64,000 nt of DNA from Eledone cirrhosa (taxonomy: Eukaryota), in assembly GCA_964016885.1 (NCBI GenBank), contig OZ024741.1:196912001-196976000 (forward strand), read 5' to 3'. The position numbers and the translations under genes were made by a program. The stretch's first letter is position 1, and each line of letters opens with the position of its first letter. This document shows positions 6,677-59,011 of this stretch, one piece after another. The notes beneath the pieces were generated by a model. It was not told where the DNA came from. It searched no databases and saw nothing but the letters and a program-made list of their open reading frames with translations.

Positions 6677-6982
6677 ACAGAGAATAGGTGATTGCCAAAG
6701 AGGAATATAAAAAATAAAAACCCTAGAAAAAATATACACCCTAAAATTTTATACTGAAATGGGGTGATTTGCAAGTTATTCAAATTTTATTCTACTAAAA
6801 AATAACAGCAAAATTAAGAGCAGCAATGGAAATCTTTTAATATTTAAGAGTTCTTTCTATGTAATGTTAGCCATTTCTAAAATTCAAACTAGAAAACAAC
6901 CTTTAACATCTTAGTTTCAAAACATTGCGAACTACAGGAATTCAATGATGGTATTTTTCCCATATATATATATATATATATA

Positions 6983-9900
6983 ACCTAAATGGTCACGTTG
7001 GACAACATTGTGACGGCTACGACGAAATCCATGGAGGCTATGGGTTTGGTACTAGAAATGAGGAAGGCTCCAGAATCCTGGAATTCTGTGATGCAAATAA
7101 CCTAACTATCTGTAACACTAACTTCAAAAAACGTGACAATCACCTGATCACCTATAGATCCGGGGAACACACAAGCCAGGTAGATTATATCCTTACCAGA
7201 AGACGTGACAGAGTGTCTGTTGTTAACACTAAATCCCTCCCCCATGAAGAATGCACCTCCCAACATAGACTGATAATTAGCGACCTCATAGTCAGGACGA
7301 GACGTACTCGACAACAGAAGAGGACTATCCTCAGGAGGAAAATATGGAAGTTAAAGGACCCCACAGCCAGGAATAAATTCCAAAGCATATTACTTGATGC
7401 TTTCGACAGTAAGGAAGAACATTTAGAGTCGGACAATATAGAGGGAGAGTGGGAATTTCTGAAAGCAAACCTGCTGTTGGCGACAGACGAGGTCTGTGGC
7501 TGGAGCAGGCCTGTAGGCAGGAGGAGAGTAACATGGTGGTGGAACAGTAAGGTGGAGGGGTCAATTGAGGCCAAAAAGCAGGCTTGGAAAGTATGGCGGG
7601 ATGGGGGAAGTAGAGAGGACTATCAAGTGGCCAGGAGGGAAGCTAGGAGACAAGTGTACTTAGCAAGAAGGGAAGCTGAGGAAAGAAAGTTCAAGCATGT
7701 TCTACAACGCGATGACCAAAAACGTGAGGTGTTCAGGATTGCTAGGCAATGCGTCAAGGAAAACCGTGATATTGTCGGGGAGAAGTGTGTACTAAACGAC
7801 GATGGCACACTTGCCATCACCGACGCTGATAAGAAGGTAGCTTGGAAGTGTCACTATGAAAGGCTTCTAAATGAGGAGAATAATTGGGAGAAAGGCAGTC
7901 TCCCCCATATCGACCCAATAGAGGGACCAGCAGTGTTAGTCGAGGGGAGTATAATAAGTAAGGCAATCAAGGATATGAAGACTGGTAAGGCGGCTGGGCC
8001 TTCGGAAATAGTTGCTGAGATGCTGAAGGCATCTGGCACGGTGGGACACACCATGGTCACCCGCATAGTTAACCAAGTCGTACAAAACGGGGTTGTTCCG
8101 AAGGACTGGCATAGCAGCATCATCGTTAACTGTTATAAGGGTAAAGGAGACGCCCTAGATAGGAGTAACTATAGAGGCATTAAATTAATCGACCAGGTCA
8201 TGAAGGTCACGGAAAGAGTAATAGCGCAGCTAATCAGAGAGAGAATTGACCTAGATGAAATGCAGTTCGGGTTTGTGTCAGGCAAAAGTACCACAGACGC
8301 TCTTTTCATAGTACGACAACTACAAGAGAAGTACCTAGCTAAAGGTAAACCCCTCTACTTAGCTTTTGTCGACTTGGAGAAAGCCTTCGACAGAGTCCCC
8401 CGCTCCATTATCTGGTGGGCTCTTAGAAAACTAGGCGTTGACGAATGGCTTGTGAGGGCTATACAAGCCATGTATAAAGAAACAGTCAGCAAGGTTAGAA
8501 TTAACAACGAATATAGTGAAGAGTTTAGCGTAAAAGTCGGCGTCCATCAGGGCTCTGTTCTCAGTCCACTACTATTTATTATTGCCCTTCAGGCCATAAC
8601 AGAGGAGTTCAAGACAGGCTGCCCATGGGAACTCCTATACGCAGACGACCTGACACTCATAGCGGAATCAATGGCCGAGCTAGAGAAGAAATTCCAAACA
8701 TGGAAGCACGGCCTAGAGTCAAAAGGACTTAAAATTAACCTGGCTAAGACCAAAGTACTAGTTTGTAGGAAAGAAAACAAGGCGGCGGTCCCTTCTGGGA
8801 AATGGTCGTGCTCGGTGTGTAGGAAAGGCGTAGGTAGAAACTCCATTTTATGTCCTAAATGCAAAGTATGGGTGCATAAAAGATGTAGTGGGATCACAGG
8901 TAGGCTAACTAAGAACATAGATTTTACATGTGGCCGGTGCTCTGGTGCAATAAGTAGCAGCAAGTGCCCACAAACTACTAGCTCTTTCAATTGCGCAGAG
9001 GGTTCTATAGAAATAGTGGACAGCTTCCGTTACCTGGGCGATAAAATCAGCGGTGGGGGAGGGTGCTCTGAAAGTACTGTAGCTAGAGTCAGAACTGGTT
9101 GGAAAAAGTTCAGAGAGCTTATACCACTATTAGCTGCTAAAGGGTTCTCACTAAAAATGAAAGGCAGGTTGTACGATGCCTGCATACGAACAGCAATGCT
9201 GCATGGCAGTGAGACCTGGGCATTGTGTGCAGAGGATATACGCAGACTAGAGAGGAACGAAGCTTGCATGCTCCGCTGGATGTGTAACAGTAATATACGT
9301 GAACGGCAAAGCATAAACGAACTAAGGAATAAATTAGAGATAAGAGGGATCAGATGTTGTTTACTCGAGAGAAGGCTACGTTGGTATGGACACGTGATGC
9401 GCATGAAAGTCGATAGCTGTATAACAAAGTGCAGGGCAATAAAGATAGACGGTAGTCACGGAATAGGCAGACCTAGAAAAACCTGGGACGAGCTGATAAA
9501 CTCCGACATCACACACTTACACCTCTCCAAGACAATGTCACTGGACCGAGACCTTTGGCGGTACTCAGTAACAGAGAAGACCCGCCTTACCTAAATATAT
9601 AGTAAAACCTACTCCAGCCAGTAGGCATCTCTAACAAATACACCCCGTCCCACCACCCCCACCCGATCCACACCACCCCGTTCTATGTAAAGTTATGTTG
9701 GTGCCACGCCATCGAGGCCGAAACAAATGAGATCGTGTAGGTGTCACGACAAAAAAACACACAGTCCACGCTGTAATGTGGCCGTGTAGGCAACACGGTA
9801 AAAACCTCCCAGACCCACACTGTAAATGTGGTTGGTGTTAGGAAGGGCATCCAACTGTAGAAAACCTGCCAGACAGTCCTATGCGAGCAAGACAATCACT

Positions 9901-20494: not shown

Positions 20495-20626
20495 CTTAAT
20501 TGGAGCCAGGTGTTGAAATCAGATAAAGTTTGAGGTCCATTTAATAGAGGAAGTGATGTTGCAGTGCGAAGTTCCCTTGGAGTCGAACTTTCAGAGTCAC
20601 TGGATTTATTATATAATCTCGGAATG
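20495..20626 (-). CDS. EML: EML candidate 132-nt exon ending PQTLSDFNTWLQL
   Basis: Branch-point-like gactaac, then tttcacctacag|CATTCCG...CAATTAAG|gtgcat. Phase 2-2 with 43 open codons (IPRLYNKSSDSESSTPRELRTATSLPLLNGPQTLSDFNTWLQL). Confidence 0.78.
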
Positions 20627-20896
20627 CTGTAGGTGAAAGTTAGTCATTTTACATTTTTACCTTTATAGATATAAAAATCTTTGGTAAATAAATTACTTGG
20701 ATTAATTCTGTAGCACCCAGTGTTAATCAATATTAACTCTTTAAATACTACAGTCTTATGGGAAAAAATTGAAAAAAGTGAACTGGAAGCATGGACAAGC
20801 TGTAAAGATTCTTTGTTTGAACAACATTGTTTGAATAAGATTGTTTCATGCAAGAAATACTATTTGATGATCATTGTAGAATTATTGATAATTAAA

Positions 20897-20930
<34 letters not shown>

Positions 20931-23900
20931 TGTGGTGTGTGGTGTGTGTGTGTGTGTGTGGTGTGGTGTGTGGTGTGGTGTGTGGTGTGTATATAACCAT
21001 CATCATCATCATTTAATGTCTGAGAAAACATGTTAAATGATATTAGTAATGATATATATAGATAATGATATATACAAAAGAAAAATTTACTTTTTGCAAC
21101 AAACACCTTACGCTTACCTTAAACATGCTGAAAAAGACTAATAAATATATTTTTCTGCATATTGATAATTTAAACATTATAGAGTTTATATATATATATA
21201 TAATTACACAGATGTGCACGCACACACACACATTATATATATATATTTTTTAAAATAGACCTCCCTTGCAAAAGTATCCATTAACCAGCACTTATTTCAT
21301 CAAAGAATATACTATGTCTATTTTATAGCCAGCTAGGGTAAATGTTGAGGGCATACAAAAAAGAAAAGTTTAGTAAAATGTCAGTCATTTTCAAAATATC
21401 CAATCTATTTTCAGAATTAATTGATAGACTGTAGTATTTTGTTGCATACTTGAATTAAACAAAATCCAGTGGCTGATATTGTGAAGTGTGTGAAAGTCTA
21501 AAAGAGGTAAAAAGCTTTAAGATATTCAACATATAACAGGGAATAATTTGATTTTTTTATAAGAAGCTACTGATTCTATATCCCATAGAAAAGAAATTAA
21601 GATTTGATAAAGAACCATCACAGAAGCAACTCATAAGGATGAGGAGTAAAGGGAAATAATAGTTAAAGAAGCTGAAGAGTTTGGATAATTTAAACTTAAT
21701 CTAAAAACTATTTTAATTTTACTTTAACTATCACCTCAAAATAGCATTCTAGTAAAAAATACATGTCAATTATAAAACAAAAACATTCTCTATGGTTAAA
21801 ATGAAGGTTTGGGGGGGGGGGGGGGGGGATGACCATTCTAGAATAAAGTTTATGTATGAAGCAGCAGTATTTTTATAAAAATTAATTCATTTCTCAAATA
21901 TTTTGTTTTTGTAAAAAAGAGGAGCAATTTTGAAATATTTTGTTGCATTCATTAACTTTAAAAGCTGTTTTATATATTAAACTCAGTAAATTAATGATCT
22001 AAGCAAAATAAAAGAACATTTAATATTTTCCAGTTCTATGTATGAAGACCCAAATCAATTTCCCCATCTTTCAAGCTATATCAAATTATATTTTATGGTA
22101 TACAATAAATTCAAATATTTAAAGCTGACATCTATGCATGTTTAGCTGGCTTCTTACAGGTTTGTATCTCGTAGATTTCTTGAGTGTTTTAATGATAGAG
22201 GCCCTATAATTATCATTGAAAACAATGTGAAATGAAGTGCTGCCTCAACGTGAAATGAAGTGTTGGACTCACAATCAGATGACTGTGAGTCCAACAGTCT
22301 AACCACTAAGTCATATGCTTTCACTAAGCAATAAATTGAATCAAATATATTACAATTGCATCGTAGTAAGTATTTGTACTATTAAAAAAAAAACAGACGC
22401 TCTCATACACTTGTATTCATTTTTGTCATTATTTTGTAATAATGATTTCTAATTTAAGCACAATGTGAGCAGATTTGAGGAAAAGGGCAACTTTGACAGG
22501 TACTTTATTTTATTGACTCCAGAAGAATGAAAAGCAAAGTTGAACTCAGAATATTAAAAGTCAGAACAAATACTACCATAACATTTTATCCAATGTTCTA
22601 CCAATTCTGCAAACCCACCATCCACATTCATTTTATTATAATAATACATATTACAACATTTCAAAGTCTTTTGGAATACATCTACTAACTACTCACCGAC
22701 ACTCTACTTTATTTCAGAGATACCAACATCAGTAACTAAATGATAGATGTATTACAAAAGATATTGATACCTAATAATATGCATTACTATTAAAAAATAA
22801 TAATGACTACTACTTTAGGCACAATTTTAAGGGGAAAGGATGTCAATTAAAACAACCCCAATGCTTAGCTGGAATTTTATTAACTTCAGAAGGATGAACA
22901 TAAAGAGCTAGAACCAAATGCTACAAAAGCATTTTGTTTGGTACTCTACAAATTCTGCCAATTCACTAACCACTATTATAAAATAATGAGAAATTAAAAG
23001 TGAATACAACAGTGTTATGTGAGTTTTTAATGACTAAGATAATATCTACTATGTTTTACTGCTAACATACTATATGAAATAAAATGCTTTTCAGACAAGT
23101 TCGACTCAAATATATAAAATTGCTAAAGATATTAAATTCTAAAATATACTTAATTTATTTAAAAAAAACTATAATTGAAATTCTAAGATGATTCATATAT
23201 CCAAGTTATAAAATAGACTTGTCAAAATGTTTTTTTAAATAAATGCATATATAGATTTAATAAATTTTGGTGAATGGGCAAATAATAATACTAATATGAT
23301 GGTAAAATATGCTTAGTAAGATTAGTAAAATTAAAACTTTGGCTAACAAAACATAAAAGAAAAGAAAAAAAATGGAGAAATATAATTAAAATTAAAAAAA
23401 ATATATATAATGGTTTTATAAAAATATTTTACCAATATTATTTCAATAATATCAAGATTTATATTTTATATATAGGAAAAAGTGAAAAGAACAGAAAAAA
23501 AAAGAAAAAGGATTAACAAGTAATTGCTTATTTCAGATAAATAAGTAGTTAGGAACACATACAACATGGAAATGAATGGAATCACAAAATCAAAAGAAAT
23601 AACATGGTGTGAGGTGCTGGATTTTAGTTACAACACATCAAATATAAACTCTTTGCAGCTATTTAACTAAACAATTCTATGTTTAATGTTACAATTTACC
23701 TTAAAGTAGATTGATTATTATATGTATTAATACCTATAGACTTTTGCTAGTTCAAACAAGAGTTAAAACGTTTTGAGAAGTTAAATTTTAAATACAAAAG
23801 AAAATACTCAGGTTTATGTTTATGCTAAGAGAGTGAATTAGAGCCTACTCCTTTATGAACAGATAACAAGGGGAATGACAACAGCTTTCTTTTATCACAA

Positions 23901-24234
23901 CATTAACACACCTTAATATTTGAAATAGACAATATATTTTAACAAAGCAAGGGTACATGTGAGGAGATGATTATGCTTACAAAAAAAAAACAACAACAAA
24001 AAAAACAACAACAAAGCTGGTAAAATGTTTTCATTAACCACTTATTCTTAACTAAACAAGGTTGTGTGTGTGTAGGGGGTGTTGTACATATGAACACAGC
24101 TGTGTTGTTTGCAGTTAGTGGAAAACTAAATATATTTTGTTGACAGAAGTGCAGTTTTTTTTAATGTGATATCAAATTTAAAAAAAAAATGTATTTAGAA
24201 AATACTTTTTTCTGTCTTAGAAAATCATAAACAC

Positions 24235-24399
24235 CTTGACTGAAACCATTTCTTGAAGTCTGTAAGAGTTTGTGGAGGCTGTTTAGCCTTTTCATGTTTA
24301 GCTGGTGACTTTGTAGAATTTTTTTTTCCACTTGGTACCTTGTTCTTCAGTTTTCTTGATGGGCAGGCTGGCAAACGGTTTGATGAAAGAGATGGAGCA
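24235..24399 (-). CDS. EML: EML candidate 165-nt exon, Lys/Ser/Pro-rich, ending PQTLTDFKKWFQS
   Basis: ttttacccacag|TGCTCC...CAGTCAAG|gtgttt. Phase 2-2 with 54 open codons (APSLSSNRLPACPSRKLKNKVPSGKKNSTKSPAKHEKAKQPPQTLTDFKKWFQS). The donor is weak, but the 3' end is paralogous to the 20495-20626 exon. Confidence 0.75.
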
Positions 24400-28856: not shown

Positions 28857-31243
28857 TTATATTTGGAGAGGGTCATGTCCTAATATTGCCAGGAAATTGT
28901 AGTAAAAAACACTCAGTTTTGGTTTGGTATATCTTTATATTTCTATAATTTAGCCAGCAATCAATGTTTATCACTGACCAACAGTTAAAAATACTAGCAG
29001 AAAAACCACCCTACGGTGGTTTTCTGCTAGCATGTGTAGTGTGTATATTGATATTATACACAAATATATATGCATGTAGATATGATACATCAAATAAAAT
29101 CGTAATTGACAATATACACAGAAATTGAACAAAGCCTATGTTACACTGTCTTCTGTAAACAGTAATCCATGATATATTAAAAAAAAGACGACATTATATA
29201 TAAACTGCATTAGGAGAAAATTAGCGACGGAAATATATACGATTATAAGTGTTATAATATAACGGCCGCTAACCGGAAGTGTTGACATTTGATAATTTTA
29301 AAGAAGTGAATTTTAAAGATTAAGCTATAAAATATATTTAATCAACAGCCACGAAATTTAGCACAGAAATTATGTAATATTCATTCATTATTTATTCAAA
29401 GTAATCCAACTTATTTTACAAACCTATTTTAAAAAAATATATTCTGGACGCAATCCTGCAGACCTTCCTTTATTATAGTTAAGATAAATATAGTTTCTCA
29501 TAAATCATTTATCACACTTAAGTGACATTATCAGTGATTATCATGTTTCCATGTCTCCTCCTGCTGCATTCCTATAATTTTATTTATTTATTTTTGTTGT
29601 CTCTGTTTTTTGCATGCGTTTGTATGCATGTATTCTGTTTGGTGTGTGCTCATGTCTGTGTGTTTATATTCTAACTTTGGTCACTAGTGCGTATTTATGT
29701 GTGGGTGGTGTTACTGCATCTGTATATATTTATATTCTATCTTAGATCACAAGTACGTTTTTGTGTATGGTTGTTGTTATTCCATTCATGTTTTCTGTTC
29801 AGCTTAGGTTTTCTTAATTCTATTTCTGTAGCCTCTCTAATTTGTCTAATTTTAGAGTCATTCCTATATTTAGATATTTTCATTTCTATGTTGTCTATTT
29901 TCCCATCATATTTTAGTCTGGCATATTGATATAGTACTGAATTGTCTTTTTGTCCTTTTAGTTCACTCCAGTGTCTATCTATCCTCTCTCCTATGTATGT
30001 CATCATGTTTCTGCAAACACCTTCTGTACATTTTATACTATAGACTACGTTTCTAGTTTTACAATTTATTTGTGGACTTACTCTACATACTATACATTTC
30101 TTATTTGTACAGCGAGTTTTCTTAAAGTTTTACTGATCATGGATTTTATGGTAGTTTCTGGCTTTTCTAACACTTTGATATTTAAAAAAATGTTTCTTAG
30201 GGCCTTTCTAAATTGGTGAGCTAGTTCACCTCCAGGGGTTACATCCAGGAACATGACACTCTGGTATCTCTGATTGTCATACCATGAGATGGCTTTCCCT
30301 ATCTTTTGCCAAGTCCTGTCTATGCTATTCTGCGATTTGCTCCGTATAGCAGGCAAATTCCATGATTTGCATAGATAGGACTAATCTCTTTCATGTCCAT
30401 CTCTATGAAGTTCTTGTATGTCACTGTAACCCCTTTGATTCTGTCTCTTTGGTTGTAGCCAGAGAACTGCATGCGATGGATGAAGTGTTGTGCGTGTCTT
30501 TCTAGTTCAGTTGGATCACACATGTGGGACACATTTTTCATCACTTTTACTAAGTCCACAATCAGGGTATTAAACTTAGCACTATTAGACAACGCTGAGT
30601 TTTTGTGGAGGCAATGGGTTTAGTATAATGTGATCGGAGGATTTGGGCTTTCTCATTTATAGTATGCAACCAGAGTTCAGTGTCTAATATGGGTTGTCTA
30701 TTGTTTGGGTGTTTGGAAGGGTAGTCGATAGTTACTGTGATGCTCTGATGTATGGAGTTAGCTATTTGCTGGATGCTTTCCATGGTGTTAGCCTTTAATT
30801 TGGGTTCATATATACTCTTGTGAGGGTGTTTTTATTACTATATTAATGTAGTCTACATAACAAGAGTACATGATGAGAGCTATGGAGTTCTCTGCTAAAT
30901 AAAATAAAAAACTTATAGGAACACAACAGGAGGAGACATGGAAACATGATAATCACTAATGATGTTTCTTAAGTGTGATGAAAGATTTATGAGAAACTAT
31001 ATTCATATTTATACTTTTAACTGTTGGTCAATGATAAACATTGATTGCCAGCTAAATTATTTGTAGAAATATAAAGATATACTGAAGCGAAAACCAAACC
31101 AAACCAAACCAAACCAAACTGAGTGTGTTTTACTGTATTTTTCTGGCAATATTAGGACAACATGACCCTCCCCAAATATAACAATATCTGTTTCAACACA
31201 CGATTTCATATAAAAAAAACCTTGCAAAACAAATACATCTCCG
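28857..31243 (-). mobile_element. Penelope-like retroelement remnant with inverted termini
   Basis: Minus-strand fragments: YVDYIN (degenerate YVDD), IANSIHQSITVTIDYPSKHPNNRQPILDTELW (RT end) and YIGE...IRQIREATEI...LNRKHEW (GIY-YIG end). Sequence at 28857-28993 plus 29485-29564 is the reverse complement of about 30925-31181. Confidence 0.85.
28994..29484 (-). mobile_element. Non-autonomous Helitron-like insertion
   Basis: On the minus strand it starts A|TCTTAACTATAATAAA and ends with hairpin CTAGCAGAAAACCACCGTAGGGTGGTTTTTCTGCTAG|T, with no TSD. Removing it restores the Penelope inverted arm. Confidence 0.8.
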
Positions 31244-33966: not shown

Positions 33967-33984
33967 CTTCCATACAAATTTATT
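33967..33984 (-). CDS. EML: EML candidate 18-nt microexon, (R)INLYG
   Basis: atatatttcag|AATAAATTTGTATGGAAG|gtaatt. Phase 2-2 and open, but short enough to occur by chance. Confidence 0.35.
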
Positions 33985-41823: not shown

Positions 41824-41862
41824 CTAAGAGACGGCAGTTTGCCATAATACACAGGTTTGGCC
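41824..41862 (-). CDS. EML: EML candidate 39-nt cassette exon, (R)AKPVYYGKLPSL
   Basis: tcatttattctag|GGCCAAA...TCTCTTAG|gtgagt. Consensus donor, phase 2-2, open in the frame set by the 49874-50108 exon. Confidence 0.7.
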   Translation of the reverse strand, partial: GQTCVLWQTAVS

Positions 41863-49873: not shown

Positions 49874-50108
49874 CTGAATGGTTTAACATTTCCATCATTA
49901 AGTTCTGTGGTTGTTGACAAAGATGACCATTTTTTAAGATTGGCATTGTTAGCTTTGTGTGATGGAGATGTTCTAGCTGGAGGGGTTGTACTTCGGTGGG
50001 GAGTGCTATGAATACTTTCCACTGGACTTAAGTGGACTGCTTTTTTCTCTCCACGCCGAGTTGCAGATTTAAATGCAGGTTTGGAAGGCAAAATGTTATT
50101 TTGCAACG
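49874..50108 (-). CDS. EML: EML gene exon, basic Ser/Pro/Thr-rich linker
   Basis: gttttgtag|CGTTGC...CCATTCAG|gtaagt, 235 nt, phase 1-2, in frame with the upstream exon. Gives (A)LQNNILPSKPAFKSATRRGEKKAVHLSPVESIHSTPHRSTTPPARTSPSHKANNANLKKWSSLSTTTELNDGNVKPF. Overlaps ORF 49870..50133. Confidence 0.88.
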
Positions 50109-58858: not shown

Positions 58859-59011
58859 CTTTACCAGACTCCTGAACGTGGTTTAGTTTGCGAATCACAT
58901 CTGCAAGAGCACTTTTAAGGCAAACTATTTCATCTCCTTGCAGTTGTACTTTCTTTTCTAAAACTGCAACCCGCTCACTTAAGGTTTCTTGGTCTTGATC
59001 AAGTAAGCCAT
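58859..59011 (-). CDS. EML: EML/EMAP-family gene, exon encoding the N-terminal coiled-coil trimerisation domain
   Basis: Minus strand ttgtttcag|ATGGCTTA...GGTAAAG|gtaagt, 153 nt, phase 1-1. Translates (D)GLLDQDQETLSERVAVLEKKVQLQGDEIVCLKSALADVIRKLNHVQESGK, matching the EML1/EML4 trimerisation motif (R...LE.RVQ.Q.DEI..LK.ALADV.RRL) as recalled. Confidence 0.92.

What the first reader, a model, noticed from the sequence alone, without database searches (positions are those of the whole stretch)
20495..24399. Two paralogous exons share a C-terminal PQTL[ST]DFxxW[FL]Q motif conserved at protein level
Seen: PQTLTDFKKWFQS (24235-24399) and PQTLSDFNTWLQL (20495-20626) are 8/13 identical and both abut an AG|gtg donor. 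Four of the identical residues use different synonymous codons (CCA/CCT, CTT/TTA, GAC/GAT, CAG/CAA), while the 5' parts of the exons show no evident similarity. Inference: an old exon duplication with purifying selection on a short, probably amphipathic helical motif that I do not recognise from vertebrate EMLs. The exons may be tandem or mutually exclusive.
Basis: partly seen in the sequence, partly recalled or inferred. Interest (0 to 1): 0.75.

Follow-up and report, generated by a model that had tools for sequence, protein, structure and literature searches.

The report
Twin optional exons in octopus EML
An octopus-type gene for the microtubule-binding protein EML holds two copies of one old exon that share a 13-residue ending but differ sharply in charge; one copy is an annotated optional exon in two Octopus species, and the other is unannotated but likely still spliced, which would let splicing tune how tightly the protein grips microtubules.

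Summary
The window holds the 5' half of an octopod EML (EMAP-like) gene on the minus strand. Exon A (24399-24235) is an annotated cassette exon in O. sinensis and O. bimaculoides, and its motif is kept at 11-12 of 13 residues. The motif pattern occurs only twice in 3.0 Gb. Differences are mostly synonymous (pS 0.85, pN 0.21), and no level of neutral decay reproduces B's pattern. B is therefore likely a live or only recently lost exon. However, B is in 0 of 55 EML proteins seen, no RNA run was available, and no orthologue could be tested. New point: A is strongly basic (+11) and B is neutral and Ser/Thr-rich. EMLs grip tubulin's acidic tails through this basic linker, so A/B likely tunes microtubule affinity while keeping a short predicted helix of unknown partner. 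Mutual exclusion is untested. This is an ordinary process with one uncharacterised, lineage-restricted motif.

The parts
24235..24399 (-). Exon A: 165-nt frame-preserving (phase 2-2) cassette exon of the EML linker; 54 full codons, net charge +11; conserved N-block, variable middle, C-terminal motif
   Evidence: Present in 8 of 11 listed O. sinensis isoforms and the one O. bimaculoides protein; splice sites and frame; charge
24237..24275 (-). Motif copy A (13 codons), ending 2 nt before the donor
   Evidence: 11/13 and 12/13 identical to the O. sinensis and O. bimaculoides exon A; low-confidence helix in both AlphaFold models of P0028
24400..24413 (-). Acceptor tract of A, homologous to that of B
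   Evidence: 10/12 identical before the AG vs at most 7/12 in 35 other pairs
20495..20626 (-). Segment B: unannotated 132-nt duplicate of exon A, phase 2-2, open frame of 43 full codons, net charge 0, 12 Ser/Thr; likely a cassette exon
   Evidence: GC 0.39 vs 0.28/0.23 in the flanks, like the known exons at 0.41. One of 7 hits of a blind cassette filter over 71.5 kb. In 0 of 55 EML proteins
20497..20535 (-). Motif copy B (13 codons), ending 2 nt before the donor
   Evidence: 8/13 identical to window A and 9/13 to the Octopus A orthologues
20627..20644 (-). Acceptor tract of B, with an ACTAAC word at -18 (branch-point or STAR/QKI-type site; label recalled)
58859..59011 (-). EML coiled-coil (trimerisation region) exon, 153 nt
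   Evidence: 92% identical to Octopus EML-like 2
49874..50108 (-). Basic, Ser/Pro-rich linker exon, 235 nt, net +8; present in all long Octopus isoforms seen
41824..41862 (-). 39-nt cassette exon of the linker
   Evidence: 13/13 match to Octopus isoforms; skipped in others
33967..33984 (-). 18-nt cassette microexon of the linker
   Evidence: Present in O. sinensis X1 and absent in X2; located

Best explanation
A and B are two copies of one exon in the linker of an octopod EML gene; A is an annotated optional exon in two Octopus species, B is likely a second optional exon still in use, and choosing basic A (+11), neutral B (0) or neither would tune electrostatic grip on microtubules while A and B both supply the same short predicted helix. 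Shown: host gene, duplication, frame, splice sites, charge contrast and conservation of A. Inferred: that B is spliced (about 0.7), that the helix is a binding element for an unknown partner placed just before the TAPE domain (about 0.5), and that the charge difference matters for microtubule binding (about 0.45, by analogy with human EML4). I lean to either/or use over routine co-inclusion, because no annotated isoform is longer than the A-only form, but this is weak.
For: Host gene. The EML1 TAPE crystal construct 4CI8 aligns from residue 258 of P0028, i.e. right at the motif's end. Duplication. Selection: (pS 0.85, pN 0.21; given 13 random changes, P 0.018-0.035 for the identity and about 0.002 for the score); for a neutral copy of A, across 9 divergence levels of 4000 runs each, motif retention together with an unrecognisable 5' part reached at most 0.0025; all four features together appeared in 0 of 4000 runs at every level. 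Exon-like composition. A conserved in blocks: 16/18, 4/17 and 16/19 vs O. sinensis, with net +8 and +9 in the two Octopus species. Mechanism by analogy: EML4 binds tubulin's acidic tails through its basic N-terminal domain, and Nek6/7 phosphorylation lowers this (10.1101/466979, abstract). N-terminal splice variants of EML2/EML4 differ in microtubule localisation (PMC12182296, abstract and introduction).
Against: B occurs in 0 of 55 EML proteins seen, including 20 from three Octopus species. Searches with B or the A+B profile found no true relative. Motif A occurs in none of the 35 proteins seen from outside the genus Octopus (Argonauta, the cuttlefish-type cluster, Biomphalaria, Ostrea), so it is not a deeply conserved element. 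The helix has pLDDT of about 30-35, and its hydrophobic moment is not significant. The neutral null assumes a whole-exon copy and a frozen A, and it cannot exclude recent loss of B. No functional data exist for either exon.
Confidence: 0.5

Rival explanations
1. B was a functional duplicate for a long time but is now a pseudo-exon (recently dead or spliced at noise level); only A matters.
For: B is in 0 of 55 proteins and in no annotation seen. Its donor is weak (GTGCAT). It lost A's conserved N-block, and its helix lost both lysines.
Against: AG, GT, frame, open reading frame and exon-like GC are all intact. A has an equally weak donor (GTGTTT) and is used in relatives. A long-dead copy is excluded.
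Confidence: 0.2
2. A and B are spliced in tandem. The protein then carries two copies of the helix, and the A-B junction creates an S-S-I-P word, matching the EB1-binding SxIP consensus (recalled), that could add plus-end tracking.
For: Both exons keep the frame and lie 3.6 kb apart, so nothing steric or NMD-based forbids co-inclusion, and their lengths differ. The A-B junction was the only one of 17 in-frame junctions tested that gave an [ST]x[IL]P word; 4 rows starting at the 18-nt exon were out of frame in the script and were dropped. PMC8373072 (passages) says most tandem duplicated exons become constitutive.
Against: O. sinensis exon A ends in Pro rather than Ser, which would destroy the word. 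None of the 9 A-containing proteins seen carries B. A 4-residue word arises easily by chance.
Confidence: 0.2
3. The shared 3' end is kept for RNA reasons (a splicing enhancer beside a weak donor) or by partial gene conversion, not for the peptide.
For: Both donors are weak, and the shared tract abuts the donor; the acceptors are also alike.
Against: Synonymous sites are saturated (pS 0.85) and differences pile up at third positions (8 of 13). This is the reverse of nucleotide-level constraint or recent conversion.
Confidence: 0.07
4. B is a chance look-alike in intron sequence.
For: Many exon-end and intron positions could have been compared; 7-11% of 43-codon stretches here are stop-free.
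Against: Score 47 vs a null maximum of 34; exact donor register; acceptor 10/12; only 2 matches in the genome.
Confidence: 0.02

Closest known systems
Octopus sinensis EML-like 2 RefSeq isoforms (XP_036363550.1 and others) and O. bimaculoides XP_052827945.1
   Same: Same gene; the same linker cassettes (39-nt, 18-nt, exon A) are annotated as optional; exon A has the same motif.
   Different: None of the 12 proteins seen from these two species has a B-type exon; 5 of the 20 members of their cluster were not listed.
Human EML2/EML4 long and short N-terminal splice variants (PMC12182296; 10.1101/466979)
   Same: [quoted passage not shown]
   Different: Those variants delete parts of the N-terminus. 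The text I read describes no duplicated exon pair and no such motif.
C. elegans elp-1 exon 5 (PMC2642796, passages)
   Same: Optional, lineage-restricted, Ser/Thr-rich, frame-preserving exon in an EML gene, conserved within its lineage, function unknown.
   Different: A single 27-residue exon, not a duplicate pair. I did not compare its sequence with A or B.
Tandem exon duplication-derived substitutions (PMC8373072, passages)
   Same: Adjacent homologous exons; that catalogue also admits pairs that are alike in only a few motif residues.
   Different: Substitution (either/or use) is not shown here; the catalogue is human, and the term EML has 0 hits in its main text.

Membership tests
EML1-4-type EMAP-like proteins | N-terminal coiled-coil (trimerisation) exon | tested here: met
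   59011-58859, 92% identical to Octopus EML-like 2; Pfam has no specific hit for it
EML1-4-type EMAP-like proteins | HELP motif and two beta-propellers (TAPE) downstream | tested here: met
   Exons on the same strand at C2:196.82-196.89 Mb; orthologue P0028 passes PF03451, PF23409 and PF23414 and matches 4CI8 at E 1e-237
EML1-4-type EMAP-like proteins | Basic linker that binds microtubules | not testable with these tools
   Charge measured (+8 for the main linker exon, +11 for A); binding not testable
Tandem duplicated exons | Homology between adjacent exons | tested here: met
   Motif, register, donor and acceptor
Tandem duplicated exons | Both copies are spliced into mRNA | tested here: inconclusive
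   A: annotated in relatives. B: in no protein seen, and no RNA data to lay
Mutually exclusive homologous exons | Never on the same transcript | not testable with these tools
   Needs long reads; 0 of 9 A-containing proteins carry B, but no B-containing protein exists to compare
Mutually exclusive homologous exons | Similar length and similarity along the exon (typical feature, recalled) | tested here: not met
   165 vs 132 nt; 5' parts unalignable
Mutually exclusive homologous exons | An enforcing device: steric spacing, frameshift on co-inclusion, or docking/selector pairing | tested here: inconclusive
   Spacing of 3.6 kb and preserved frame rule out the first two. None of the 25 longest of 165 inverted repeats shown links the two exons except microsatellite arms; short selectors were not assessed
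TPR helix (only profile hit, P0060) | 34-residue repeat with paired helices | tested here: not met
   The hit sums 5 weak stretches in a TPR-repeat protein from JGI/IMG; A and B have no Pfam match

The most novel reading that the evidence does not exclude
The 13-residue helix is an undescribed octopod-specific docking motif, and A/B form an either/or splicing switch. The switch would keep the partner site while swapping a +11 microtubule-gripping spacer for a neutral, phosphorylatable one, uncoupling partner recruitment from lattice affinity in particular tissues such as neurons or muscle.
Probability: 0.25. Interest if true: 0.55.

Novelty: new member of a known kind. Interest (0 to 1): 0.32.

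Why it matters
If B is live, annotation misses an EML isoform, and the pair is a natural experiment. Evolution has isolated the one 13-residue element that must be kept while the rest of the exon changed charge, which points straight at a testable motif in an otherwise disordered linker. The process (tandem exon duplication, optional linker exons in EMLs) is known and the motif has been seen only in octopods, so the general reach is modest.

Tried and rejected
RNA evidence: no RNA holder listed. The 3 runs, all of one sample, cover intron and exon alike as genomic contigs and say nothing on splicing. Orthologues of B: none at E<=10 among longer proteins (9 candidates) or near-length proteins (7 candidates, A+B profile). 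The 1.84-billion representative search gave 1 hit, a TPR protein, rejected as a summed repeat match. Metagenome contigs gave 0 pattern matches and 0 confirmed of 162 candidates. These collections cluster isoforms or hold few animal genomes, so the blanks are weak. Further copies in the own genome: none. PDB sequences: 2 hits at E 0.8-1.4, chance. ESM Atlas: no usable feature hit; structure hits under TM 0.4 are other EMLs. Complex prediction of the exon-A end with the TAPE domain returned no verdict. Both AlphaFold models are poor overall (mean pLDDT 37-38), so no fold search was run. Known motifs considered from recall and rejected by eye: the PIP box (Gln out of register, one aromatic), the p53-type MDM2 helix, the EF-hand exit helix, LIR (B only) and the LC8 TQT site. 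Literature: no paper for (motif strings); two searches listed nothing on this gene. Subscription journals and bioRxiv supplements were not searchable, and cephalopod splicing tables there could list exon B. Earlier scan notes had nothing for this locus.

Full report
Host gene. The window is G000:C2:196912001-196976000 of a 3.0-Gb genome. An ORF at 59033-58860 is 92% identical to Octopus EML-like 2 proteins. The remaining exons, through both propellers, follow on the same strand below the window. The organism is an octopod close to, but not identical with, the named Octopus proteins. Between the 235-nt basic linker exon (50108-49874) and the first exon of the TAPE region (about C2:196890350) lie 71.5 kb. 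This span holds several optional exons: 39 nt (41862-41824), 18 nt (33984-33967), A (24399-24235), B (20626-20495), a 51-nt exon near C2:196894390, and an internal first exon near C2:196905017. The four cassettes inside the window end in AG|GT in phase 2 and preserve frame. Shared phase is therefore no evidence of kinship between A and B.

The observation. The match scores 47; controls reach 25-30, and 150 simulated spans reach at most 34. A pattern built from both copies finds only these 2 places in the genome. The coding 5' parts do not align. However, the 12 bases before the acceptor AG are 10/12 identical, against 2-7/12 in the other 35 pairs among 9 acceptors of the gene. A and B also share a GTG donor, which the other four window exons tabulated lack. 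The whole exon was duplicated with both splice sites.

Is A real? Yes, in relatives: 8 of 11 listed O. sinensis isoforms and the single O. bimaculoides protein carry it, while others skip it. Against O. sinensis it is 16/18 identical at the N-end, 4/17 in the middle and 16/19 at the C-end, and it stays basic (+8, +9 and +11). The Octopus copies have Ser at motif position 5, like B, so B matches them at 9/13 and the window's Thr is likely derived. None of the 8 O. vulgaris proteins and none of the 35 proteins from Argonauta, the cuttlefish-type cluster, Biomphalaria and Ostrea carries the motif. Four short genomic fragments (P0010, P0011, P0058, P0059) were left out of this tally, and 5 of 20 members of the Octopus cluster were never listed.

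Is B real? Evidence for:
- Over the 13 codons pS is 0.85 and pN 0.21 (Fisher P 0.002 on rounded counts), and 8 of 13 differences are at third positions (P 0.012).
- With donor-anchored windows of 10-25 codons, the score-based P stays at 0.0003-0.007; the identity-based P ranges from 0.001 to 0.11.
- A neutral copy of A cannot at once keep the motif, lose the 5' part, keep both splice sites and stay open. This happened in 0 of 4000 runs at each of 9 divergence levels, and the motif-plus-5' pair alone peaked at 0.0025.
- GC is 0.39 against 0.23-0.28 in the flanks.
- A blind cassette filter over the span returns 7 candidates: A, B, four antisense to a retroelement ORF, and one other.
Evidence against: B is in 0 of 55 proteins, and no search found an orthologue. 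The O. sinensis isoform named X1 (947 aa) has A without B. If RefSeq numbers isoforms by length (recalled), that annotation has no A+B form. The motif was chosen for protein similarity, the null assumes a frozen A, and recent loss of B is not excluded. I put B being spliced at about 0.7.

How it likely works. A encodes 13 Lys/Arg and 2 Asp/Glu; B encodes 4 and 4, with 12 Ser/Thr. Human EML4 binds the acidic tubulin tails through its basic N-terminal domain, and phosphorylation there lowers affinity (10.1101/466979, abstract and outline). EML2/EML4 N-terminal splice variants differ in microtubule localisation (PMC12182296, part 1 of 7: abstract, introduction, start of results). By analogy, including A would raise lattice affinity and including B would not, while both place the same short element just before the TAPE domain (the 4CI8 alignment begins at residue 258 of P0028). 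Both AlphaFold models draw a helix at 256-262/264 in an otherwise coil linker, at pLDDT of about 30-35. The Thr-x-x-Asp start fits a helix cap (recalled). The hydrophobic moment is not significant against shuffles. The partner is unknown. Shown: duplication, frame, charge, conservation of A. Inferred: splicing of B, a binding role for the helix, the affinity effect, either/or use.

Rivals. B recently dead (0.2). Routine co-inclusion, in which the A-B junction spells SSIP, an SxIP-type word that O. sinensis would lack (0.2). RNA-level constraint or conversion (0.07; contradicted by synonymous saturation). Chance (0.02).

Comparison and novelty. Optional, lineage-specific linker exons are known in EMLs, e.g. 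C. elegans elp-1 exon 5 (PMC2642796, passages). Tandem duplicated alternative exons are a described class (PMC8373072, passages). Earlier unchecked notes from this scan report several duplicated cassette exons in this genome, including an annotated/unannotated twin in an ASAP linker; this suggests the process is common here. I found no paper on this motif or on octopus EML splicing in the searches. Verdict: a real, unannotated paralogous exon with a constrained motif and a charge contrast; a new member of a known kind; interest 0.32.

Noticed in passing
window 6949-9591 (+), antisense to the EML gene, inside its intron: An 881-codon stop-free ORF of a non-LTR retroelement: partial endonuclease, RVT_1 (E 4e-32) and a PHD-type finger after the RT; the open frame suggests a recent insertion.
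   Followed up: partly
L004 about 3017 (G000:C2:196905017, minus): Internal first exon starting MASQK that gives a short isoform without the coiled coil or linker. It is also seen in O. vulgaris and Sepia pharaonis proteins and parallels the short EML2 form described in PMC12182296.
   Followed up: partly
L003 about 2342-2392 (G000:C2:196894340-196894390, minus): 51-nt cassette exon beginning R-S-T-S-H-G, with counterparts in O. sinensis X9 and in Biomphalaria, so older than A/B. It never co-occurs with A in the 11 O. sinensis isoforms listed.
   Followed up: partly
window about 49925-49945 (minus), in the linker exon: A KWSS[LM]S word is kept in octopods, the cuttlefish-type cluster, Biomphalaria and Ostrea within an otherwise divergent linker; a better-conserved candidate motif than the A/B helix.
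   Followed up: no
window 33967-33984 (minus): 18-nt microexon with alternative use in O. sinensis; no TGC within 50 nt upstream of its acceptor.
   Followed up: partly
G000:C14:44882000-44906000 (+): A second EML-family gene with repeated propeller matches at 38-51% identity, possibly EML5/6-type (label recalled); it lacks the motif pattern.
   Followed up: no
window 21744-24180: Runs X2 and X3 show other letters and small deletions in the intron between A and B, against X1 and the window (possibly a second haplotype); none is listed inside either exon.
   Followed up: no
window 28876-31159: Nested long inverted repeats (arms of 49-113 nt, 86-92% complementary) flank a decayed element of about 2 kb, between the microexon and exon A.
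   Followed up: no
P0028 (O. bimaculoides record): The gene model has apparent intron read-through in the propellers and a divergent C-terminus relative to EML1, so it is an imperfect template for structure prediction.
   Followed up: no
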